Source: an uncultured Ignavibacteria bacterium (GTDB lineage: Bacteria; Zixibacteria; MSB-5A5; SM23-73-2). From it: a DNA stretch of 64,000 bases. Below the pieces are notes generated by a model, which worked only from the letters and a program-made list of their open reading frames with translations, was not told where the DNA came from and made no database searches. The stretch's first letter is position 1; each line of letters begins with the position of its first letter. A program made the position numbers and the translations under genes. Positions 19,445-62,276 of the stretch are shown one piece after another. The stretch covers positions 78,208 through 142,207 of the forward strand of contig CAYURP010000001.1 in assembly GCA_964447175.1 (NCBI GenBank). The letters run 5' to 3'.

Positions 19445-19533
19445 GGAGAGATGTCCGAGTTGGTCGAAGGAGCACGCCTGGAGAGCGTGTAGCCCCCAAA
19501 AGGGGCTCCTGGGTTCGAATCCCAGTCTCTCCG
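19445..19533 (+). tRNA. tRNA-Ser (anticodon GGA), class II with a long variable arm. CCA is not encoded.
   Basis: The cloverleaf was folded by hand. The acceptor is GGAGAGA/TCTCTCC. The anticodon stem is CACGC/GCGTG with loop CTGGAGA. The variable arm is 'TAGCCCCCAAAAGGGGCTCC' and the T-loop is GGGTTCGAATCCC. Confidence 0.9.
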
Positions 19534-19562
19534 CTTCATTTTCTAATTTTTACTTGACAAGG

Positions 19563-29895: not shown

Positions 29896-30137
29896 ACAAA
29901 GAGACGGGCAAATTTAAAATTCAAAATTAAAAGTTCAAAATTTAAAATTATAGTTATTGTTTGCCTGGGACAGAGTTATATAGGGACATTCAGGTGATTC
30001 CTGCTCAGGTTTCAAGGATTCTTTTTTTTGAATTTGTTTTTAGACCAGATTAAACCTTTCAGTAGAATTTGTGTCTAAAAGTAAAAAGAATATATCAAAT
30101 AAATGATTTATATAAAGTTAAAAAACGAGGAGACGGA

Positions 30138-31397
30138 TTGAATTTAAAACACATTTTTCTATTTGTTATCTGTATAGCCTTTTTTACTAAAAACTCTTCA
30201 GCTCAGGAGCCATTGACCCTTCAGGATTGCCTTTCTTTAGCCAAGGAGAATAACCTCAAGCTGATTCAGCGAAAAACAGCGATAGCAAAGTCCGAGGTGG
30301 GTGTGACTGCCGCTTATTCATCGTATTATCCGAGCCTGAACCTTTCCATTCCGAGCCTGAACCTTTCCAGTAGATATGGCCAAGAAAGGAGCTACTCGAC
30401 AAGCATTGGGGTCGGATACACGCTCTATCAGGGAGGGTCTATTCGTGCCGGTGTAAAGGCTGCAAAAGCGAGAGTGAAAATAGCGGAGGAGAACTATCAT
30501 CTTGGGGAGAACGAAGTGATTCTCGCAGTAAAGGAGGTTTTTTTTGGAATTTTGCAGAAGCAGGAACGGATTGCACTTGCAGAGGACATCCTTAAAAGAC
30601 GGAAAGAAGACCTGGTGCTTATCAGATTGAAGTATAATGCAGGCAGAGAGAGTTCACCCGCAGTGATGGAAGCTGAAGCGAATCTATTGCAGGCAGAATA
30701 TGATAAGAAGCAGGCGGAAGCGGAATTGACCCTTGCCAAAATAGAACTCAATCTGCTTTTTGGCAGGCCCAGAAGGGCAGAAGTATCCATAATGTATGAA
30801 GATGAGGATATAAAGTTTCCGTCTCTTGATAGTCTAATTGCAGAGGCGAAAACTCAAAGACCAGATATTCGCTCCCAGAGGATTAACACGGAGGTATTGA
30901 AAGCTCAGGTTACTCAGGCTAAGAGTAGCTATTTTCCAAAAATTTCCCTGTCTTCTTCATGGGGATATACATGGCGGAGTGGCGAAAAATTCCTGGACCA
31001 GCAAGGAGATTGGAGTGTAGGAATAAGCTTCTCCTTGCCTACTATCTTTGATGGTTTTTCCAGGAAGGCAAAAGTCAATGAGGCGACCCTGTCCCTAAAG
31101 GATCAGGAGGCAACAATCCAGGAGCTAAAGCAGCAGATAGAGGAGGAGATTGAGCAGGATTGGGCCAACTGGGAACTGGCAGAAAAAGTAATTGAGGTGA
31201 ATGATAAAACTCTGCAGGCTACTCGGGAGATGTACCAACTAACAAAGCTTCAATATGAGCAGGGAATGACATCTTACTTTTTCCTGCAACAAAAGGAAAG
31301 TGATCTTACTAACGCAGAAAACAGATATGTTAGTGCTTTATATAATCTGCGTGTGTCTATAGCCAGATTAGAAAAGGCATGGGGAAGGAGGAGTTGA
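30138..31397 (+). CDS. TolC-family outer-membrane efflux channel. TTG start at 30138. The listed ORF starts 69 nt earlier.
   Basis: Signal peptide and two OEP repeats rich in coiled-coil/Gln. It is the first gene of the TolC-MFP-MacB operon. AGGAG lies 6 nt upstream of the TTG. Confidence 0.8.
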   Translation: MNLKHIFLFVICIAFFTKNSSAQEPLTLQDCLSLAKENNLKLIQRKTAIAKSEVGVTAAYSSYYPSLNLSIPSLNLSSRYGQERSYSTSIGVGYTLYQGGSIRAGVKAAKARVKIAEENYHLGENEVILAVKEVFFGILQKQERIALAEDILKRRKEDLVLIRLKYNAGRESSPAVMEAEANLLQAEYDKKQAEAELTLAKIELNLLFGRPRRAEVSIMYEDEDIKFPSLDSLIAEAKTQRPDIRSQRINTEVLKAQVTQAKSSYFPKISLSSSWGYTWRSGEKFLDQQGDWSVGISFSLPTIFDGFSRKAKVNEATLSLKDQEATIQELKQQIEEEIEQDWANWELAEKVIEVNDKTLQATREMYQLTKLQYEQGMTSYFFLQQKESDLTNAENRYVSALYNLRVSIARLEKAWGRRS

Positions 31398-32386
31398 TGA
31401 GAAAATTATTCATAGGAATCATATTTCTAATAATAATCCTGGCTGGATTTTTCTACCTGCGAAAAAGGAATAACCATAATTCAAGTTCACCCAGTTATGA
31501 GATAGTCAGAGTGGAGAAGGGAAATATAGAAGTTAAGGTTCTTTCCACCGGGATTATACAACCCTATACCAGGGTGGAGGTTAGCGCATCTGTCGGCGGA
31601 AGGATAGACAGAGTAGAGGTGGATGAGGGAGATTTGGTCAAAAAAGGGGATATTCTTGCCTGGATTTCCAGCGAGGATAGGATGGCTCTTCTGGATGCGG
31701 CACGTTCTGCTCTGGAATCCTCTCAACAAGAAAACGATCAGGAGGCCATAAAAGAGGCGGAGATGGCTTATGAAATCGCAGAGAAAGCTTACAAACCGGT
31801 GCCTCTAACTAACTCGATTTCCGGCGAAGTAATAAATCGCTCCTGTGAGCCGGGACAGAACGTCTCCACCCAGAGCATCCTCTTCGTCATCGCTGATCGG
31901 CTTGTGGCCAGCGTGGAAGTGGATGAGGTGGATATAGGTAAGATAAAGATGGGACAACAGACCTGGATTACGCTTGATGCTTTTCCCGATGAGAGGTTGA
32001 AAGGAAAAGTGACCAAGATCTCCCGCGAGGGCAGTCTGGTCTCGGACGTGGTGGTCTACGAGGTGATGGTGGATCCCCTGAAAGTTCCGCCCCATTGGGC
32101 ATCGGGTATGACAGCCAACGTGGAATTTATGGTCGAAAGAAAGGACAGTATACTGGTGATTCCAAAAGGTACAGTAAAGGGAAAAGAAGGTGATAACTAC
32201 GTTATGCTATTAGAAGATAAGCCAACACCTCGGAAGATCGAAACAGGTATTACTGATGGAAGGGTGATCGAAGTAACTGAAGGATTGAAGGAAGGTGAAA
32301 AAATAATCTTGGGTGGGATAGAAAACAACTCACGGCAAGGAGAGCCTGGCCAAGACCTGAGGAGGATGATGAGGGGACTGAGATGA
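31379..32386 (+). CDS. Efflux periplasmic adaptor (membrane fusion protein, MacA/HlyD-like).
   Basis: N-terminal TM, biotinyl/lipoyl-like and beta-barrel MFP domains. It overlaps the neighbouring genes. Confidence 0.8.
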   Translation: MGKEELMRKLFIGIIFLIIILAGFFYLRKRNNHNSSSPSYEIVRVEKGNIEVKVLSTGIIQPYTRVEVSASVGGRIDRVEVDEGDLVKKGDILAWISSEDRMALLDAARSALESSQQENDQEAIKEAEMAYEIAEKAYKPVPLTNSISGEVINRSCEPGQNVSTQSILFVIADRLVASVEVDEVDIGKIKMGQQTWITLDAFPDERLKGKVTKISREGSLVSDVVVYEVMVDPLKVPPHWASGMTANVEFMVERKDSILVIPKGTVKGKEGDNYVMLLEDKPTPRKIETGITDGRVIEVTEGLKEGEKIILGGIENNSRQGEPGQDLRRMMRGLR

Positions 32387-34338
32387 TTGAACTTAAAAAT
32401 GTCAGCAAAACCTACAAGATGGGGGATATAAAGGTCCCTGCCCTGAGAAATGCCACACTTAAAATAGAAGATGGCGAATTCATCGCCATTATGGGACCTT
32501 CAGGTTCGGGCAAGTCCACCCTCCTGAATATCCTGGGATGCCTGGATGTTCCCACCAGCGGCAAATATCTATTCGATGACATAAACGTCGCAGAATTTTC
32601 CGAATCGCAGCTTGCCCGGATCCGGAATGAGAAGATAGGATTCGTTTTTCAGACTTTTAACCTGCTGCCTCGTTTGAACGCCCTGTCCAATGTGGAGCTT
32701 CCACTTATTTATGGGGGAAATCATACTAAAAGAAAAGATATAGCCATTAATGCGCTGCAGGCGGTTAATCTTGAAGATAGAGCTCATCACCGTCCCAGAG
32801 AATTGTCCGGCGGACAACAACAGCGTGTTGCCATTGCCCGGGCACTGGCCAACCAGCCTTCCATAATTCTTGCGGATGAGCCCACCGGGAATCTGGATTC
32901 TAAATCCGGGAAAGAGATAATGTCAATCCTTTCTGAGTTTAACCAGAAGGGCATGACCATTATTCTGGTAACGCACGATGACTCGGTAGCATCTTATGCT
33001 CAAAGAATCGTACGTTTGAAAGATGGTGAGATTGTGGAAGATCAGAGAACCTCAGGTATGGAGCGGGTTAGCCAGACTACGGTGCCAGCACTTAGCGACA
33101 AGAAGAAAAGAAGGTTCTCCATGGCTGAATTGGTAGAAAGTTTGTCCATGGCAGTATCCTCCATTTTTTCAAATAAACTCCGCAGTTTTCTGACCATGCT
33201 GGGAATTATCGTGGGAGTTTCTGCTGTGATTACCATGATAGCCATAGGTCAGGGGGCTGGTGCTCAGATTACGGAACGTATCAGTAAGCTGGGGGCAAAT
33301 CTTTTGATGGTGCGTCCCGGGGCCTCTCAGAGAGGACCTGCACGATCAGCCAGCGGAAGCATTACCTCTCTCACTTATGAGGATGCCCAGGCCATTGCTG
33401 AGAGAAGCCCCTCTGTGGCTAAAGTGGATGCAGAGTATTCCAGAAATGCTCAGGTGGTCTACGGAAATAAGAATACCAATACCACCATAAATGGAGTGAC
33501 ACCCAGCTATCCCGAAGTAAGAAATTTTCCGGTAGAGCAAGGTTTTTTCCTGACTGATGAGGATAACCGAATTATGAGTCGGGTGGCGGTTCTGGGAAAA
33601 ACGGTGGTCAAAAACCTTTTCGGAGAAGAAAATCCTATAGGACAATACATAAAGATTAAGCGGAGCAATTTTCAGGTTATCGGCGTGATGAGCGAAAAAG
33701 GTAGTAGTGGGCGGAGAGATGAGGACGATATCATCTTTGTTCCACTGAAAACCGCACAGAAAAGGCTATTTGGGGTGGATTATGTATCATCTGTCAATGT
33801 AGAGGCAAAGAATGAGGATGTTATGGACAAAGCATCAGCCGAGATTGCATCTTTGCTCCATGAAAGGCACAATATCAGGGAGGACCAGGAGGACGACTTC
33901 AATATCATGTCTCAGGCAGAGATACTCTCCACCATGCAGGAAACCAGTAACACCTTCACTATGCTTTTAGCCGGTGTTGCCGTGGTTAGCCTTATCGTGG
34001 GAGGAATTGGGATTATGAACATTATGTTTGTGTCCGTTACCGAGAGGACCAGGGAAATAGGCATCCGCAAAGCCATAGGCGCACAGAGGCGTGATATCCT
34101 GAGCCAGTTTCTTATCGAGGCGGTCATAGTGTCTTTGAGCGGCGGAGCAATTGGCGCTCTTTTAGGCATTTTGACCAGTCAACTGGTGAGCAAGTTTGCA
34201 GGCTGGCCCACGGTCATCACCCCCACCTCCGTATTATTGTCCTTCTCCTTTGCCTTTGCGGTGGGACTGTTTTTTGGATTCTATCCAGCCCGTAAGGGCG
34301 CGCTTTTAAACCCTATCGATGCATTGAGATATGAGTAG
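32383..34338 (+). CDS. macB: MacB-type ABC transporter (fused N-terminal ATPase plus C-terminal FtsX permease).
   Basis: Walker A 'GPSGSGKST', signature '[15 protein letters not shown]', Walker B '[11 protein letters not shown]'. The C-terminal 4-TM FtsX domain ends '[10 protein letters not shown]'. Confidence 0.9.
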
Positions 34339-34673: not shown

Positions 34674-35627
34674 ATGAAATCGTATCGCACATCCATTGCA
34701 ATCCTTTTGTTTTTTGCCCTTCTTGTTGCCAGCCCCTGGAACGAGGCTTTGAGCCAGCGCGGTGGAGGTCATCATGGGAAAGGCTTCTTGTCCAATTTGA
34801 CGGATGAGCAAAGAGAGGCTGTTCAAGAGAAAATGGAGGAGATGAGAGAACAGGGTGCTACACCTGAGGAGGTTCACACCGCAGTAGTTGAGATGCTGAA
34901 AGGTTATGGCATCGAGGTGCCCGAGGATTGGAAGGGACTGCATGGTCGAGGTGGCTTTGGTCCTGGTCCAGGTGGCTTCTGGAAAGATCTCACTGATGAG
35001 CAGAGGCAAGCTGTTCATGAAAAGATAAAGGAGCTGCGAGGTCAGAGTGCTACAGCTGAGGAGATTCACACCGCAGTGGCAGAGATGCTAAAAGGTTATG
35101 GCATTGAGGTGCCTGAGGATTGGAAAGGACCGCATGGTCGAGGTGGTTTTGATCCTGGTCCAGGTGGCTTCTGGAAAGATCTGACTGAAAAGCAGAGACA
35201 AGCTGTTCATGAAAAGATAAAGGAGATGAAAGACCAGGGTGCTACCCGGGAGGAGATTCACGCCGCAGTAACTGAGATAATTGAAAGTTACGGTATCGAG
35301 CTACCAAAGGATTCTGAAGATAGTACTTCAGAAATCGCACCTGCTGCTGAACCTTATATTAAAGCCCAGAATTATCCCAATCCCTTTAATCCTCAGACCG
35401 AGATCGCTTACAATCTGCCTCAGGACTATCAGGTCAAGCTGACCATCCTGAATATACAGGGTCAAAAAGTCAGGGTTTTGGTGGATGAGTATCAGAACGC
35501 AGGGATGAAAAAGGTGACCTGGGATGGCTGTGATGAAAGCGGAGAAAGAGTAGCAAGCGGGGTCTATTTTTACAGAATTGAAGCTGGCTCATACACTGTG
35601 TCGAACCGGATGGTTCTGCTCAAGTAG
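34674..35627 (+). CDS. Secreted T9SS cargo protein. It has three tandem Spy/CpxP-like LTXXQ repeats of about 62 aa plus a Por-secretion C-terminal sorting domain.
   Basis: Signal peptide. Three repeats of 'LTDEQR.AV.EK..E.R.QGAT.EE.H.AV.EMLKGYGIEVPEDWKG.HGRGGF.PGPGGFWKD'. The C-terminus 'NYPNPFNPQTEIAYNLP...VASGVYFYRIEAGSYTVSNRMVLLK' matches the T9SS type-A CTD. Confidence 0.7.
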   Translation: MKSYRTSIAILLFFALLVASPWNEALSQRGGGHHGKGFLSNLTDEQREAVQEKMEEMREQGATPEEVHTAVVEMLKGYGIEVPEDWKGLHGRGGFGPGPGGFWKDLTDEQRQAVHEKIKELRGQSATAEEIHTAVAEMLKGYGIEVPEDWKGPHGRGGFDPGPGGFWKDLTEKQRQAVHEKIKEMKDQGATREEIHAAVTEIIESYGIELPKDSEDSTSEIAPAAEPYIKAQNYPNPFNPQTEIAYNLPQDYQVKLTILNIQGQKVRVLVDEYQNAGMKKVTWDGCDESGERVASGVYFYRIEAGSYTVSNRMVLLK

Positions 35628-53511: not shown

Positions 53512-54225
53512 ATGAAAAATAGTGAGAAATATTCAGCAATAAAAAATGAATTGCTTGCTAAAGGAGCCTCGTTGGTTGGTTTTGCTGACTTGAGTAAAAT
53601 ACCATCTGATACTCGAGATTTTATGAGATATGCCCTTTCAATTGCTGTGGCCTTGGATCCGACTATAATAGCTGGTATTCGTAAAGGTCCGACCCAAAAG
53701 TATCGTCTGGAGTATAAAAGAGTTAATGCACTTCTATCGAAATTAGCTGATTATGCAGCGGGTATGTTAAGGGACTGGGGATATAAAGCGATTCCCAAAG
53801 CCCCTACCAATGTGGGAATCGATCCAAAGACCCAGAGCACGATTCTTCCTCATAAAACCGTTGCTACCCGGGCGGGATTGGGGTGGATAGGTAAATGTGC
53901 GCTTTTGGTTACTAAGGAATTTGGTACTGCCATTAGGCTTACCTCGGTTCTTACGGATGCTGAGTTAGAAACAGCGATTCCCACGGATCAATCGTTATGC
54001 GGTGATTGTGAAGATTGCGTGAAACTCTGTCCCGGAGGTGCTGCCTCAGGAAAAAACTGGAGTGTGAACCTAAATCGAGATTCGTTCTTCGATGCTTTTG
54101 CCTGTGCCAGTGCTGCCAGAGAATGTGCAATAAAAAGGATTGATATCGACGATACCATCTGCGGGATCTGTATTTCAGTCTGTCCCTGGACTGAAAAATA
54201 TATTAAGAATAAAACGGGCAAATAA
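53512..54225 (+). CDS. 4Fe-4S cluster-binding protein (QueG/RdhA-related N-domain plus two ferredoxin-type Cys motifs).
   Basis: 'CGDCEDCVKLCP' and 'CGICISVCPW'. Confidence 0.4.
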   Translation: MKNSEKYSAIKNELLAKGASLVGFADLSKIPSDTRDFMRYALSIAVALDPTIIAGIRKGPTQKYRLEYKRVNALLSKLADYAAGMLRDWGYKAIPKAPTNVGIDPKTQSTILPHKTVATRAGLGWIGKCALLVTKEFGTAIRLTSVLTDAELETAIPTDQSLCGDCEDCVKLCPGGAASGKNWSVNLNRDSFFDAFACASAARECAIKRIDIDDTICGICISVCPWTEKYIKNKTGK

Positions 54226-54346
54226 CAGAAAATTGAAAAAAGCCATATGTGAACTAATGCTGGGGCTGGGATGGTGTTTGAGTACAAAAAAGACCGAATG
54301 GTTTTTAAACCATCCGGTCTTGGATTATAAATTAGTCTTTTTTGAG

Positions 54347-56506
54347 TTAGAAGCCTATGCGGACCCCGGTTCGGATGATGTAGAGCGAGCCGGTTTCTAT
54401 CCCGTATACATATCCTTCATCATCAGTCAAATCATAATAAACAGCATCAGCAGTGAAAGAGACCTTTTCTGTGATTTTGTATTCCCCACCAAATGAGAGT
54501 TGATACTGAGTGTAAGCCAGATCGGAATAATCGATAATGGGGGTGTAGTCGTAATCTGCCGAAGCGACATTATCAAAAACCTCATCCGGAACCTCAGTCA
54601 TATCAGTTATATCCATTGTCCCTTTGCTGTTGATGAAGCTTCCGCTCAGTGTGAGATTTAATTTCTGTGTTGCCAGGAAAAGAATATTGGCGGAAAGGGT
54701 AAGGGCTTTGCTTTCATACTCGGTCTGGGCAAAAAAGGATCCGTAATGCTCTTGTTCGCCACCAACTGTGGCGTTAACCACGCCCCCTCACCCATCCATC
54801 ATGGCCACAGCTGCCAGGCCGTTGGATTTATTGTATATATAGCTCAGATTGCCGAAGAAATTCCATTTGGGGGTGGGTGTGAGATTAAACGAGAAAGTGG
54901 GCTGCAGTTTGGTCTGTTTTAGATCCAGAGTGTCAATGTCGCTGTTAGTTCCCAGGCTGGCCCTTAAACTGGCAGAAAGGCTGGCTTTGGGGCTGGGTCT
55001 CAGGTTTAGATTCAGCTCCACTCCGTTAACCAGGGTGGGTTGGTTGGTTACCTGTCCGTATCTCAATTCCTCACGCTGATAGTAATAGAAGGGTGAGGGA
55101 TAGTTCTTACCCGGATTTTCGAAGATCAGATTATAGGGGGCAGGATTTTTTATGCTTTCCAGGAAAAACTTAAGGAGCCCGGTGAATTTAGAAGTGGGCC
55201 GGTATTTTCCTCCTATGGAGAATTTGAGCTTATTGGTTTTTTCATCTGCGCCCGCTTCAGGATAGTCATCTCTTTTTATCTGCTGGTATCCTGCTGAAAA
55301 TGAAAGCCGGTATTTCCTCTGGGGCTGGTAGATGAATTCAGCTGAACCTTTAGCCTCGGTTCGGGTGAGATTGGAATAACGAATGAAGTCGAATTGTTCA
55401 GAATCTTCTAGTGCAGGATCTGTCTTCCCCCAAGGTGGATTGTCAACTCCTACTGTGTCGTTTTCGATTCGGTTTAGCGAGGCTTGTGCAATGAATTTGG
55501 TTTTTAAGCTGGGATTCACCACGTACTTCAAAGTCCCGCCGTTACTTTTAATTTCCAAGCCTTCGGAGATGTTCTTGGCCTGGGAGTTGGTGAAACTACC
55601 GAAAATTTTGCTTTTCCCCATTTGGGTTGAAACCTTGACCGTATGAGCCAGCTTCTGGTTCTGGGAGAGTTTGCCAAATGGGACCTCTTCTCCGCTGAAA
55701 ATAACCCTGCCCGAAAGATCAGTGCCATTGATGGGGTTTTGAGCTGTGTCGTAAAACGCAACTGGCACGGGCGCTTCCGATTTGAAAGAGCGAAAACTGA
55801 ACATATAGGACAGAAACACATTACTTGGATTAATTTCAAATCCCAGGGATGCGGAATGGGTGCGGCGGTCAACATCCACTGATTTGGAGACCAAATGGCA
55901 GGAGGAGCAGTGCATGGACACTATTTTTTGATCCTCCCCTTTCTCCAGAATGGAACGGTGAGCTGCAATGAGTTTCAGTTTGGCTTTGCCGGGCACTTTG
56001 ACTTCAAAGTCCGATTTTATCTGATGCCGGGTATAACCGAAATCGGCATTGGGAGTTTGATCCTCATGGGTAACCATTTTCCCTCCACCGGGTGGGGAGG
56101 CGGATTGATTTGTGGCCTCCCGGACCATCAGATTACTCAAAAGATCTTTCTCCCTCTGTCGGTAAAATGAACTATAGGATACCTTTCCGGATAGAACCTC
56201 TTTTGATCTTCCCGAAAGCTCAAGTGAAATTCTTTTGGAGTCGTAGTAATGCCCGGAGAACCAGAGATTTTTTTCACCTTTATAGCCGGAGTAATTCAGC
56301 AAAACCTCAGGTAAAGCACCCTCTTTTCCACTATCGAACTCTCCCACCTTTTTGTAGAAATCGTTGAGTCCGGTATAGTGACCCCCTAACCAGAGGCTCC
56401 AGCTGGAAAAACTTGGCTCATCCTGGGAGAATGTGGGAGAGGAGGAAATCAACAGCCCGACTATTATCAACAAACTAATTAAAACGCATACGTCTGTTTT
56501 TTTCAT
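54347..56506 (-). CDS. MtrB/PioB-family outer-membrane beta-barrel (porin partner of the decaheme cytochrome). It is interrupted by one in-frame TGA (minus-strand codon at plus 54788-54790).
   Basis: Signal peptide. The N-terminal CxxC ('MHCSSCH') is conserved in MtrB. About 719 aa if read through. The C-terminus ends in Phe ('RIGF*'), as in OM beta-barrels. The two listed ORFs (54788..56506 and 54347..54781) share one frame, separated only by the TGA. Confidence 0.6.
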
Positions 56507-56516
56507 ATTCCTCTCC

Positions 56517-57470
56517 TTATCTTGTTAATGCTTTTCCAGCACCTGAAGTGGACTGGGATGGAAGGTCGGATCCATGAATCTCGGAGTGGCACTGAGTGCA
56601 TTTGGTCAGAAAAGCTTCCTTCATGCCTTCCTTTGTGGATAAGCCTGACCTCTCAGGGTGCAGGGGAACTGTAAATTCTCCCTCCACTCCTAAAAGTGTG
56701 GTATGAAAATGCATGGAATGGCAGGACAAACACAAAAAGGGTTCGTTCTGCACAAGCATTTTGTCAGCCACGGTTCCGTGAGGGTCATGGCAGATTTTGC
56801 AGTCCTCATTGACCGGATCATGCTCGAAAATAAAGGGTCCCTGAAGAGAGGAGTGGCAGGAGAAACAGAGTTCGCGGCTATCGCCTCCGAAAGCGTGTTT
56901 AACTTCCCCGGAGTGAGGTGAATGACAATCCGAACAGCTGATCACGCCCTCCAAAACTGGATGATGTGAAGGCATCTGAGCCTGAGCCATCTTATCAGGA
57001 TGACAGCCAAAACAGAGCTGGGGCTGTGGTTTAGCTAAAAGACTCTTCTCCTGGGAGTGAATCCTGTGGCAGTCGCTGCATCCCCCTGCCATTTCGGAAT
57101 GGGTTGAGCCGAGCCAGGAAGTGAAATCTATACCCCGGTGACAATTAAGGCACAGGTTTACTCCAGTGCGGGTATAATCTCTGGCGGGATTAATAATCAA
57201 GGCTACATCTCCTTCCTCTGCGTGCCGGGAACCAGGACCATGACATGATTCACAGGTATTCCCATCTCCCACGGACAGGCGGGCATGGATATTATCTTTA
57301 AATCCCTCAGTGATATCCTCATGACAGGCTGAGCAAACCTCATCCCCCACCACCACTGCAGCGGGAGGGGAATCTCCCAATACATAAGCTGCTGAAATAA
57401 GAAGAAAAGAGAAGATGAAAAGATAAACCCCTACTTTAAATCGAAGTGGGGTGAATTTTAGAATTCTCAA
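56517..57470 (-). CDS. Periplasmic decaheme c-type cytochrome, MtrA/DmsE/PioA family.
   Basis: Signal peptide. Ten CxxCH motifs in 317 aa: CSACH, CESCH, CLNCH, CSDCH, CFGCH, CSDCH, CFSCH, CKICH, CLSCH, CTQCH. It lies immediately upstream of the MtrB-like gene. Confidence 0.85.
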   Translation of the reverse strand: MRILKFTPLRFKVGVYLFIFSFLLISAAYVLGDSPPAAVVVGDEVCSACHEDITEGFKDNIHARLSVGDGNTCESCHGPGSRHAEEGDVALIINPARDYTRTGVNLCLNCHRGIDFTSWLGSTHSEMAGGCSDCHRIHSQEKSLLAKPQPQLCFGCHPDKMAQAQMPSHHPVLEGVISCSDCHSPHSGEVKHAFGGDSRELCFSCHSSLQGPFIFEHDPVNEDCKICHDPHGTVADKMLVQNEPFLCLSCHSMHFHTTLLGVEGEFTVPLHPERSGLSTKEGMKEAFLTKCTQCHSEIHGSDLPSQSTSGAGKALTR

Positions 57471-57783
57471 TATATACCTCCTTTCCTTGTATGTATCAGG
57501 TCATTGTTTCTTGATTTGAACATTTCTATAAGCCTCTTGCATGAAGTAAATCTATATAATATTGCCAGATTACCTACATAGTATAACTTATTTTAGGAAT
57601 TGGTTATAATTTTGTCAAGGGGAAAATGAATTGAATACTGTGTTAATCTTGATTCTAAAACTTCTCAATCAAACATTCACAGCTTTAAATCATTGTCTTC
57701 TGATGGTTTAGAAATCATCACTAAAAAAGATTGACTCATTTTATTTTGGAATTATCTTTAGTTGAATATAGAACAAAAGAGCT

Positions 57784-61354: not shown

Positions 61355-61445
61355 AAAATTCCTTGATTTCGGTTTTATAATTGCTATTATTCAAAATGTG
61401 ATTTTTACAACTAAAAGCTATGAACTATTGACTATGGACCATCAT

Positions 61446-61518
61446 GGGGCAGTAGCTCAGCTGGGAGAGCATCTCGTTCGCAACGAGAAGGTCGGCGGTT
61501 CGAATCCGCTCTGCTCCA
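61446..61518 (+). tRNA. tRNA-Ala (anticodon CGC). CCA is not encoded.
   Basis: Manual fold. Acceptor GGGGCAG/CTGCTCC with the G3:U70 wobble typical of tRNA-Ala. Anticodon stem TCTCG/CGAGA with loop TTCGCAA. T-loop TTCGAAT. Confidence 0.85.
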
Positions 61519-61545
61519 GAAATTCGCTGAAGCGAATTTCTGGTT
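61519..61545 (+). terminator. Hairpin immediately after tRNA-Ala.
   Basis: 'gaaattcgctgaagcgaatttc' has a 9-bp stem, followed by 'tggtt'. Confidence 0.45.
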
Positions 61546-62000: not shown

Positions 62001-62276
62001 TCTCTCGTGCTAGACGGGGAGCTAGCGGTGCCCTGTAGCCCGGAATCCGCTACACCGGGGTCGAATCCCCACTTGAGGTTTTCTGCTTTTTGAAAGGAGT
62101 TTTGAGCAAGTGATGATGAAGGTCAGGTCCTGCGCAACACAAGGTCGCCCAACCCCGTCAGGACCGGAAGGTAGCAGCGGTAAGCGATTCTTGGGTGTGC
62201 CGCGGGTTAGCCTGGCTGGAGTTAACTACCCAGAGCCCTTTAAAAAAAGAAAATCAAGGGTGGGTGCACGGGAGAT
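62001..62276 (+). ncRNA. ffs: Signal recognition particle RNA, large (Bacillus-type) form with an Alu domain. The ends are approximate.
   Basis: The 5' part 'GGGGAGCUAGCGGUGCCCUGUAGCCCGGAAUCCGCUACACCGGGGUCGAAUCCCCACUUGAGG' parallels the B. subtilis scRNA Alu domain. The S domain has 'GUCAGGACCGGAAGGUAGCAGCGGUAAG...GUGUGCCGCGGGUUAGCCUGGC' (helix 8 GGAA tetraloop region). The 3' part 'GGGUGCACGGG' pairs with the 5' end. It lies upstream of dnaX, as in Bacillus. Confidence 0.75.

What the first reader, a model, noticed from the sequence alone, without database searches (positions are those of the whole stretch)
54347..57470. MtrA/MtrB-type porin-cytochrome conduit (decaheme plus beta-barrel) with a single in-frame TGA inside the porin gene
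Seen in sequence: a 317-aa secreted protein with exactly ten CxxCH motifs (MtrA/PioA/DmsE architecture) is followed by an OM beta-barrel of about 719 aa. The barrel carries the N-terminal CxxC ('CSSCH') typical of MtrB/PioB and a C-terminal Phe. This is the genetic hallmark of extracellular electron transfer or Fe(II) oxidation and is uncommon outside Proteobacteria. The barrel ORF is split by one TGA (plus 54788-54790; '...AAVAMMDG * GGVVNATVGG...'). No frameshift occurs, and the flanking codons encode a Gly-rich loop. The possible explanations are a recent nonsense mutation or pseudogene, a sequencing or assembly error, or programmed opal readthrough (Sec is unlikely without a SECIS context). 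TGA is a genuine stop elsewhere in the window (accA, the dpm1-like gene and others). A global TGA reassignment is therefore excluded.
Basis: partly seen in the sequence, partly recalled or inferred. Interest (0 to 1): 0.6.

Follow-up and report, generated by a model that had tools for sequence, protein, structure and literature searches.

The report
Selenocysteine-containing heme porin with decaheme partner
The "broken" outer-membrane porin gene next to a ten-heme cytochrome is intact: its in-frame TGA almost certainly encodes selenocysteine, making it an ordinary member of an already catalogued but biochemically unstudied family (GSU2203/GSU2204, also called OmcK/OmcL).

Summary
On the minus strand a 317-aa decaheme gene (57470-56517) is followed by a barrel gene (56506-54347) with one in-frame TGA at 54788-54790.

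The TGA is not a mutation, an assembly error or unspecified readthrough.
- NCBIfam places the two proteins above curated cut-offs in the GSU2203 decaheme family and the "GSU2204 family CXXCH-containing (seleno)protein" family. The selenoprotein model ends exactly at the TGA.
- All 52 homologous loci fetched from different species carry TGA at the same column. An in-frame tail of 130-159 aa follows wherever the contig reaches the next stop, and in the five closest equal-length relatives tested it shows purifying selection.
- A hairpin 20 nt downstream meets the published bacterial SECIS criteria, covaries across homologues, and is the only significant hit in the window for a model built without it.
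- Three distant full-length homologues have Cys at that column.

The barrel is MtrB-like (26 predicted strands, best PDB match MtrB). Its "CSSCH" is an invariant heme-binding CxxCH, not MtrB's CxxC. By strand parity, both this motif and the Sec lie in loops on the cell-surface side.

The family is already listed as a selenoprotein and as the "OmcKL conduit". This is a routine member, so interest is modest. The role of Sec remains untested.

The parts
57590..57618 (-). Promoter-like site (TTGACA, 17 nt, TAAAAT; 11 of 12 matches) upstream of the decaheme gene
   Evidence: This is a consensus match only, not shown to be functional.
56517..57470 (-). Decaheme c-type cytochrome of the GSU2203 (OmcK) family, within the DmsE/MtrA-type family. 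It is 317 aa with a signal peptide and 10 CxxCH motifs.
   Evidence: NF041028 scores 349.2 bits (cut-off 325) and TIGR03508 scores 216.6 bits (cut-off 192.2). Ten CxxCH motifs are counted. A 10-heme gene lies directly upstream of the barrel in all 44 related loci examined.
54347..56506 (-). Complete barrel gene: a GSU2204 (OmcL) family CxxCH-containing selenoprotein of 719 residues including Sec573, ending in Phe and TAA
   Evidence: NF041027 scores 476.4 bits (cut-off 350), with model positions 4-580 of 580 ending at the TGA. The read-through protein passes Pfam MtrB_PioB at 33.5 bits, with the aligned stretch (residues 533-696) crossing the Sec site. AlphaFold2 gives 21 strands for the N-terminal part and 5 for the C-terminal part. 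The best Foldseek match is MtrB, 6r2q_B.
55895..55909 (-). Codons for C200-S-S-C203-H204, the single heme c attachment motif of the barrel (preceded by the invariant H199)
   Evidence: H199, C200, C203 and H204 are invariant in 72 homologues. In the model the motif sits at the tip of the hairpin between the two longest strands, 177-197 and 204-225.
54788..54790 (-). In-frame UGA read as selenocysteine (residue 573, motif MMDG-U-GG)
   Evidence: TGA is at the same column in 52 of 52 loci. Cys is at this column in P0157, P0172 and P0231. The same TGA is present in an independent assembly.
54757..54773 (-). Bacterial SECIS-type hairpin CGCCAC-AGUUG-GUGGCG: 6 bp, a 5-nt loop with G at position 2, 20 nt after the UGA, -9.1 kcal/mol
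   Evidence: The equivalent helix in 40 distant homologues shows 82.5% paired cells and 52 double-change cells. Covariance model R1, built without the window, hits 54790-54743 at 22.9 bits and E 1.5e-4 as the only significant match in the window.
54350..54787 (-). Post-UGA coding region of 146 aa, forming predicted strands 22-26 of the barrel and the C-terminal Phe
   Evidence: An in-frame continuation follows the TGA in every locus, reaching a stop after 130-159 aa in the 49 loci whose contig extends that far. Differences from five relatives fall mostly at third codon positions (83-96, against 28-34 at second positions), and amino-acid identity is 51-61%, like the N-terminal part. The AlphaFold2 model has five strands. 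The weak MtrB_PioB match is colinear with the model.
54290..54321 (-). Intrinsic-terminator-like hairpin (14 bp) followed by a T run, about 25 nt after the TAA stop
   Evidence: It follows the end of the read-through ORF, not the TGA.

Best explanation
This is an intact two-gene operon for an outer-membrane porin-cytochrome module of the GSU2203/GSU2204 (OmcK/OmcL) family.

The first gene encodes a secreted MtrA/DmsE-type decaheme. The second encodes a 26-strand MtrB-like beta-barrel of 719 residues. Its single in-frame UGA is decoded as selenocysteine, directed by a SECIS hairpin 20 nt downstream.

Unlike MtrB, the barrel carries one covalent heme c site (an invariant HCxxCH) at the tip of a long beta-hairpin. 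Sec573 lies in the loop between strands 21 and 22. By strand parity, both lie on the side that carries the long loops, which by the usual outer-membrane-protein convention is the cell surface.

The inferred working is as follows. The decaheme threads the barrel and carries electrons between the periplasm and the cell surface. The barrel's own heme, possibly together with Sec, forms the outermost redox site. It would stand in for the separate MtrC-type surface cytochrome, which this window lacks.

Shown here: the family assignment, the conserved UGA with its SECIS hairpin, translation past the UGA, the MtrB-like fold and the strand count. Inferred: actual selenium insertion in this organism, heme attachment, which side of the membrane the loops face, the direction of electron flow and the chemical role of Sec.
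For: - Family: NF041027 at 476.4 bits (cut-off 350), ending at the TGA, and NF041028 at 349.2 bits (cut-off 325).
- Conserved UGA: all 79 database homologues stop at the same place. All 52 loci from different species have TGA after ...(M/F)DG and continue in frame, for 130-159 aa where the contig reaches the next stop.
- Translation of the tail: the codon-position pattern shows purifying selection and identity equals that of the N-terminal part. The Pfam MtrB_PioB alignment runs across the UGA and passes threshold only for the read-through protein. The terminator follows the TAA.
- SECIS: the hairpin meets all four published bSECIS criteria in 45 of 52 sequences, including the window (criteria from PMC13188914). 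Covariation is 82.5% paired cells against 23-60% when partners are slid, and 52 double-change cells against 3-22, with 0 of 500 shuffles as high. A model built without the window clade finds this site as the only significant hit in 128 kb.
- Sec/Cys pair: three distant full-length homologues have Cys at the column when Sec is masked as X.
- Sec use in relatives: L003, L004 and L006 carry an FDH-N alpha gene with the canonical QARI-U-HS UGA 2-3 kb away.
- Fold: AlphaFold2 pLDDT 81.6 and pTM 0.75 with 21 strands, plus 5 strands in the tail. The top PDB match is MtrB 6r2q_B at E 5.6e-12 and TM 0.64; the next matches have TM of about 0.4.
- Literature: the family is listed as a selenoprotein (PMC13188914). 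OmcK and OmcL are called a putative porin:cytochrome conduit (PMC10553843). GSU2203 and GSU2204 rose 2.4-2.7-fold with hematite (PMC4070692).
Against: - No selA, selB, selC or selD gene and no tRNA-Sec was found in the 64-kb window, so Sec decoding in this organism is inferred from relatives.
- There is no protein-level evidence of selenium or heme in any member of the family.
- The full-length barrel could not be modelled because the tool refuses the read-through sequence.
- If the barrel is regular, strands 7-8 and 21-22 are nearly opposite each other, which argues against direct contact unless the loops fold over the pore.
- Only one of five models of the C-terminal piece was confident.
- The window clade has lost the His at +3 after Sec that most homologues keep.
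Confidence: 0.88

Rival explanations
1. Recent nonsense mutation or pseudogene: the barrel gene is dead and only a truncated 572-aa product, or none, is made.
For: A single in-frame stop splits an otherwise continuous ORF. Gene callers annotate two pieces in all databases.
Against: The TGA is at the identical column in 52 of 52 loci from different species, with barrel identity to the window from about 29% to 71%. The downstream region is under purifying selection in the five relatives tested and ends in a C-terminal Phe or another hydrophobic residue in most loci. A covarying hairpin follows the stop.
Confidence: 0.01
2. Sequencing or assembly error: the true codon is a sense codon.
For: The window comes from a metagenome-assembled contig, and read data were not available.
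Against: An independent Logan assembly of SRR9700688 gives the identical sequence. Every homologue in independent projects has TGA at that position.
Confidence: 0.01
3. Programmed UGA read-through or recoding that inserts a standard amino acid (Trp, Cys or Gly) rather than selenocysteine. Alternatively, the barrel is assembled from two polypeptides, the second starting at the GTG at 54781.
For: Sec machinery was not seen in the window. Two distant homologues have Gly at the column. A GTG lies two codons after the TGA.
Against: The hairpin has the position, loop G and energy of bacterial SECIS elements. Cys, the usual counterpart of Sec, is found in three homologues. Close relatives encode a canonical Sec formate dehydrogenase nearby. 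In other loci the first start codon after the TGA lies at variable distances, for example 88 nt in L003, so a separate second gene is not conserved. NCBI curates the family as a selenoprotein.
Confidence: 0.06
4. The barrel is a generic outer-membrane channel, such as a substrate porin, that merely sits next to a cytochrome and is not part of an electron conduit.
For: The sequence match to MtrB/PioB is weak: 17-19 bits per fragment, and 17.3 bits against a cut-off of 240 for TIGR03509. No MtrC-type partner is present in the window.
Against: The decaheme-barrel adjacency is kept in 44 of 44 loci. The barrel itself has an invariant heme motif. The best structural match is MtrB by a clear margin. 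In many relatives the pair lies among 6- to 21-heme cytochromes and a fusion of an 11-heme cytochrome with a FdnI-type (formate dehydrogenase gamma) cytochrome b domain, which resembles Geobacter CbcL from my recall.
Confidence: 0.05

Closest known systems
GSU2203/GSU2204 of Geobacter sulfurreducens (OmcK/OmcL; NCBIfam NF041028 and NF041027)
   Same: Both proteins score above the curated family cut-offs, and the NF041027 model ends exactly at the UGA. The gene order is decaheme then barrel. The barrel has a CxxCH motif and Sec. The pair has been described as a putative porin:cytochrome conduit (PMC10553843) and the barrel family is listed as a selenoprotein (PMC13188914).
   Different: The host is an FCB-group bacterium, probably a Zixibacterium: the nearest homologue is Zixibacteria SM23_73_2 at 71% identity. 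The window clade has U-G-G-V-V instead of U-[GA]-[GA]-H. The Geobacter genes themselves were not retrieved here, so direct identity to them was not measured.
MtrA/MtrB of the Shewanella MtrCAB complex (PDB 6R2Q; Pfam PF11854, TIGR03508, TIGR03509)
   Same: There is a DmsE/MtrA-type decaheme (216.6 bits). The barrel has 26 predicted strands, which I recall is also the number in MtrB. MtrB is the best solved-structure match. The read-through protein passes the Pfam MtrB_PioB threshold.
   Different: The sequence relationship is remote (10% identity in the structural alignment), and TIGR03509 is not met (17.3 against 240). The barrel carries its own heme motif and a Sec, which I recall MtrB does not. 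No MtrC/OmcA-type surface decaheme is encoded nearby. I recall MtrB's CxxC as N-terminal and not followed by His.
Cyc2 fused cytochrome-porins of Fe(II) oxidisers (from my own knowledge; not tested here)
   Same: An outer-membrane beta-barrel that itself carries one heme c, so the porin is also a redox protein.
   Different: As I recall, Cyc2 has an N-terminal cytochrome domain followed by a small barrel (about 16 strands), no decaheme partner and no Sec. Here the CxxCH lies in a loop between strands 7 and 8 of a 26-strand barrel.
MccSep (ExtKL, GSU2937-2936), the pentaheme selenoprotein polysulfide reductase of G. sulfurreducens (PMC13510729)
   Same: It is a c-type cytochrome selenoprotein from an extracellular-electron-transfer gene cluster. 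Sec is proven by mass spectrometry, follows Asp-Gly (..PDG-U-P..) and acts beside a heme. This is a precedent for heme plus Sec chemistry.
   Different: It is a soluble periplasmic pentaheme tetramer, not a barrel. There is no detectable homology: NF040886 scored 15 bits, and that was on the decaheme. Any functional analogy is speculative.

Membership tests
GSU2204 family CXXCH-containing (seleno)protein (NCBIfam NF041027) | Score at or above the curated cut-off (350 bits) over the part before the UGA | tested here: met
   476.4 bits. Residues 17-572 match model positions 4-580 of 580.
GSU2204 family CXXCH-containing (seleno)protein (NCBIfam NF041027) | Conserved CxxCH heme motif within the barrel | tested here: met
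   H199, C200, C203 and H204 are invariant in 72 homologues.
GSU2204 family CXXCH-containing (seleno)protein (NCBIfam NF041027) | In-frame UGA at the end of the modelled part, followed by a conserved in-frame C-terminal region | tested here: met
   All 52 loci have TGA followed by an in-frame continuation, which reaches a stop after 130-159 aa in the 49 loci whose contig extends that far. Purifying selection acts on the tail in the five relatives tested.
GSU2204 family CXXCH-containing (seleno)protein (NCBIfam NF041027) | Adjacent GSU2203-family decaheme | tested here: met
   NF041028 scores 349.2 bits against a cut-off of 325. A 10-heme ORF lies directly upstream in 44 of 44 loci.
Bacterial selenoprotein gene | bSECIS hairpin with a 3-9 nt loop, G in the first two loop positions, a stem of at least 4 bp, 16-37 nt after the UGA, and MFE of -7.5 kcal/mol or lower | tested here: met
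   The window hairpin has 6 bp, loop AGUUG, spacing 20 nt and -9.1 kcal/mol. 45 of 52 homologues meet all four criteria. Covariation is shown. The independent covariance-model hit has E 1.5e-4.
Bacterial selenoprotein gene | Cys-containing homologues at the Sec column | tested here: met
   P0157, P0172 and P0231 align Cys to the masked Sec position. These are distant relatives only; no Cys form was found among close homologues.
Bacterial selenoprotein gene | Sec machinery (selA, selB, selC, selD) in the same genome | not testable with these tools
   None was found in the 64-kb window and the rest of the genome could not be reached. Indirect support: relatives L003, L004 and L006 encode a Sec-type FDH-N.
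Bacterial selenoprotein gene | Selenium in the protein | not testable with these tools
   This needs mass spectrometry or 75Se labelling.
MtrB/PioB outer-membrane porin (Pfam PF11854) | Pfam gathering score of 23 bits | tested here: met
   The fragments alone score 17.4 and 19.2 bits, below threshold. The read-through protein scores 33.5 bits, E 2.3e-8, with the alignment crossing the Sec site.
MtrB/PioB decaheme-associated OMP (TIGR03509) | Curated cut-off of 240 bits | tested here: not met
   17.3 bits for the N-terminal part. The protein is not a member of the narrow MtrB/PioB subfamily.
MtrCAB-type conduit | Large barrel with an MtrB-like fold | tested here: met
   The top Foldseek match is 6r2q_B at E 5.6e-12 and TM 0.64. 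TonB-dependent receptors follow at TM of about 0.4. The predicted strand count is 21 + 5 = 26.
MtrCAB-type conduit | Periplasmic MtrA/DmsE-type decaheme encoded next to the barrel | tested here: met
   TIGR03508 scores 216.6 bits against a cut-off of 192.2.
MtrCAB-type conduit | MtrC/OmcA-type surface decaheme lipoprotein in the cluster | tested here: not met
   Among the ORFs of 120 aa or more kept in the 64-kb window, only the decaheme and the barrel contain a CxxCH motif.

The most novel reading that the evidence does not exclude
The barrel is not just a sheath. Its covalently bound heme and the selenocysteine, both on surface-side loops, would form the terminal redox or catalytic site of the conduit. 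The porin itself would then be the surface oxidoreductase, with no MtrC needed. Sec might act as a heme ligand or as a catalytic nucleophile toward sulfur, selenium or metal substrates, as in the heme-Sec site of MccSep. This would be the first selenoenzyme active site known on a bacterial outer-membrane beta-barrel.
Probability: 0.2. Interest if true: 0.7.

Novelty: already known. Interest (0 to 1): 0.33.

Why it matters
For annotation, this gene and its several hundred relatives are routinely split into two "hypothetical proteins". All 79 close database homologues are truncated at the UGA. As a result, surveys of iron and electron-transfer genes in Zixibacteria, Ignavibacteria and Calditrichota can miss or mis-size this conduit.

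For biology, the papers on extracellular electron transfer that name OmcKL do not mention selenocysteine, and the selenoprotein catalogue gives no function for the family. Putting the two together suggests that some porin-cytochrome conduits depend on selenium and carry a heme in the porin itself. This is directly testable in Geobacter sulfurreducens (GSU2203/GSU2204).

The present locus adds no new kind of system.

Tried and rejected
- Translating or modelling the read-through protein: align_proteins refuses a reference containing a stop. Structure prediction refuses the sequence with Cys in place of Sec. The N-terminal and C-terminal parts were therefore modelled separately. Model coordinates are not exposed, so the Sec-to-heme distance could not be measured.
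- Rfam at gathering thresholds found no SECIS family in the window, only SRP RNA and tRNA. This says little about a bacterial SECIS here.
- ARAGORN found no tRNA-Sec. Three consecutive ORFs of 442, 335 and 651 aa that might have been selA, selD and selB proved to be TolC, MacA and MacB.
- The first MAFFT alignment of the post-UGA region (A3) placed the window clade 3 columns out of register, so RNAalifold found only a weak 5-pair helix. This was replaced by alignment A6, made from distant loci only.
- My perfect-stem hairpin score against gene background was uninformative for stems with an A-A mismatch. It was replaced by the pair counts, the covariance model and the published bSECIS criteria.
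- A profile search of PDB sequences gave no hit. Only the fold comparison found MtrB.
- The review cites Zhang & Gladyshev 2008 for this family, but that paper's text mentions no cytochrome or porin. The original description could not be traced.
- The listing of cluster members gave no names or accessions for the window proteins.
- Global TGA reassignment was considered and rejected.
Full report
**Observation.** On the minus strand, a TTG-initiated ORF (57470-56517, 317 aa) has a signal peptide and exactly ten CxxCH motifs. Ten bases later an ATG ORF follows (56506-54791, 572 aa) and ends at TGA 54788-54790. The same frame then continues for 146 codons to TAA at 54347-54349, and the protein ends ...RTGVRIGF. 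A promoter-like site (57618-57590) precedes the pair. A 14-bp terminator hairpin with a T run (54321-54290) follows the TAA, not the TGA. TGA ends 12 other long ORFs in the window, and none shows a comparable coding continuation. An independently assembled contig from run SRR9700688 has the same TGA.

**Family assignment.** NCBIfam resolves the puzzle directly.
- The decaheme scores 349.2 bits on NF041028, "GSU2203 family decaheme" (cut-off 325). It scores 216.6 bits on TIGR03508, the DmsE/MtrA-type decahemes (cut-off 192.2).
- The 572-aa piece scores 476.4 bits on NF041027, "GSU2204 family CXXCH-containing (seleno)protein" (cut-off 350). The match covers model positions 4-580 of 580, so the curated model ends exactly at the TGA.
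- Pfam MtrB_PioB is sub-threshold for each fragment (17.4 and 19.2 bits against 23). It passes for the read-through protein (33.5 bits), with the aligned stretch (residues 533-696) crossing the stop.

**Is the UGA conserved?**
- All 79 close database homologues (32-100% identity) are 415-597 aa long and cover at most 80% of the read-through query, so none extends past the TGA column. In the alignment, the complete ones end in ...(M/F)DG.
- DNA was fetched for 52 loci from different GTDB species: Zixibacteria, Ignavibacteria, Calditrichota, Aminicenantes, KSB1 and Cytophagia MAGs.
- All 52 have TGA immediately after ...DG or ...NG and continue in frame. The 49 whose contig reaches the next stop run 130-159 aa to it. 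The continuation usually begins [GA][GA]H and most often ends in Phe.
- Against five relatives, differences in the tail fall mainly at third codon positions (83-96, against 28-34 at second positions). Amino-acid identity is 51-61%, like the N-terminal part. The tail is therefore translated.
- These results exclude a pseudogene or an assembly error.

**Is there a SECIS element?**
- In the window, the hairpin CGCCAC-AGUUG-GUGGCG (54773-54757) starts 17 nt after the U of the UGA.
- It meets all four published bSECIS criteria: loop of 3-9 nt, G in the first two loop positions, 16-37 nt spacing, and MFE of -7.5 kcal/mol or lower (criteria from PMC13188914, section 5). The values here are 6 bp, a 20-nt spacing and -9.1 kcal/mol. 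Of the 52 sequences tested, 45 meet all four.
- In a sequence-only MAFFT alignment of 40 distant loci that excludes the window clade, the 8-pair helix has 82.5% paired cells, against 23-60% when partners are slid. It has 52 cells changed on both sides, against 3-22. None of 500 shuffles reaches either value, and one pair shows four pair types with no mispairs.
- A covariance model built from that alignment finds one significant hit in both strands of the 64-kb window. It lies at 54790-54743 (22.9 bits, E 1.5e-4); the next hit has E 1.2. Part of that score comes from coding conservation just after the UGA.

**Is there a Cys counterpart?** A profile search of 1.84 billion representative proteins gave 409 hits. 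Most stop at the profile's last position, but a few distant ones are 718-810 aa. With Sec masked as X, P0157, P0172 and P0231 align Cys to the column (EG-C-GGG, EG-C-GAG, VG-C-FSE). Two have Gly and one has a gap. All keep the CxxCH motif.

**Do related organisms use Sec?** The window has no tRNA-Sec or sel genes. In L003, L004 and L006, whose barrels are 57-60% identical to the window's, an FDH-N alpha gene lies 2-3 kb downstream. It is interrupted by the canonical QARI-U-HS UGA.

**Structure and topology.**
- AlphaFold2 on the 572-aa part with 72 sequences gave pLDDT 81.6 and pTM 0.75, with 21 transmembrane strands.
- The 146-aa tail gave five strands, with one confident model of five. The total of 26 equals the number I recall for MtrB.
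- The best PDB match is MtrB, 6r2q_B (E 5.6e-12, TM 0.64). TonB-dependent receptors follow at a TM of about 0.4.
- All long loops fall between odd and even strands, and all even-to-odd connections are 2-5 residues. The CxxCH (200-204) is the 6-residue tip between the two longest strands, 7 and 8. Sec573 is in the loop between strands 21 and 22.
- Counting from either terminus puts both on the long-loop side, which by the usual outer-membrane-protein convention is the cell surface. This is an inference from parity.
- The mature barrel has no Cys other than the two heme cysteines. The decaheme has none outside its CxxCH motifs. An intramolecular selenenyl-sulfide is therefore unlikely.

**Genomic context.** In the window the pair stands alone, between a divergent CBS-domain gene and a convergent QueG/RDH-like gene. 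No other kept ORF of 120 aa or more in the 64 kb contains a CxxCH motif. The decaheme-barrel order is kept in 44 of 44 relatives examined. Many Zixibacteria add a TetR-type regulator upstream and 6- to 21-heme cytochromes downstream. These include a fusion of an 11-heme cytochrome with a FdnI-type (formate dehydrogenase gamma) cytochrome b domain, which resembles Geobacter CbcL from my recall, and NrfH-like proteins. That context fits a pathway linking the quinone pool to the cell surface.

**Literature.**
- GSU2203 is OmcK. GSU2203 and GSU2204 rose 2.7- and 2.4-fold with hematite (PMC4070692).
- Murali et al. call OmcK and OmcL a putative porin:cytochrome conduit in partners of methane-oxidising archaea. 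They note that no periplasmic cytochrome is adjacent and do not mention selenocysteine (PMC10553843). By NCBIfam, the decaheme is itself of the MtrA/DmsE type, so the component that is missing is the surface cytochrome.
- NCBI already names a Zixibacteria member of the family (P0049).
- MccSep/ExtKL of Geobacter is a proven heme selenoenzyme in which Sec follows Asp-Gly and acts beside a Cys-ligated heme (PMC13510729). This is a functional lead, not homology.

**Verdict.** The feature is real and the gene-pair call is right. The in-frame TGA is best explained as selenocysteine in a routine member of an already curated family. The novelty of the locus is low. The remaining interest is that no one has tested what a selenocysteine and a heme do in an outer-membrane barrel.

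Noticed in passing
L003 7962-10937; L004 around 8082; L006 around 10630: A formate dehydrogenase-N alpha subunit gene is split by the canonical Sec UGA (..LEHQARI-U-HSATVA..), 2-3 kb downstream of the decaheme-barrel pair. It is preceded by an FdhE-like gene and a diheme cytochrome gene. This shows that these relatives decode Sec.
   Followed up: yes
P0157, P0172, P0231, P0174, P0225, P0243 (distant homologues): Full-length relatives of 718-810 aa have Cys or Gly at the Sec column. P0243 also has an N-terminal monoheme cytochrome c domain fused to the barrel. All keep the in-barrel CxxCH.
   Followed up: partly
window 54779-54787 (-) and loci L002, L005, L007: The window clade reads U-G-G-V-V, whereas most homologues read U-[GA]-[GA]-H-[LI]. 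The window clade has thus lost a widely conserved His three residues after Sec. Its significance is unknown.
   Followed up: no
L041 4325-13745; L033 4287-12230, and many other Zixibacteria loci: The module is embedded in larger cytochrome clusters. A TetR-family regulator lies upstream. Downstream are 6-, 8-, 11-, 13-, 17-, 19- and 21-heme proteins, including a fusion of an 11-heme cytochrome with a FdnI-type cytochrome b domain (CbcL-like from my recall) and NrfH-like cytochromes.
   Followed up: partly
window 30069-34338 (+): A TolC-MacA-MacB type tripartite efflux operon (442, 335 and 651 aa). I first suspected these were sel genes because of their sizes.
   Followed up: yes
window 34674-35627 (+): A protein with a type IX secretion (Por_Secre_tail) sorting domain, consistent with an FCB-group host.
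   Followed up: no
window 62005-62271 (+); 19445-19534 (+); 61445-61519 (+): Bacterial large SRP RNA (181 bits), tRNA-Ser(GGA) and tRNA-Ala(CGC).
   Followed up: no
window 53512-54225 (+): A 237-aa protein with weak matches to QueG and reductive dehalogenases (iron-sulfur type), convergent with the barrel gene. No link to the conduit is evident.
   Followed up: no
PMC13188914 Table, ref 61: The review cites Zhang & Gladyshev 2008 for the GSU2204 family, but that paper's main text contains no mention of cytochrome, porin or outer membrane. The primary source for the family appears to be the NCBIfam model rather than a paper.
   Followed up: partly
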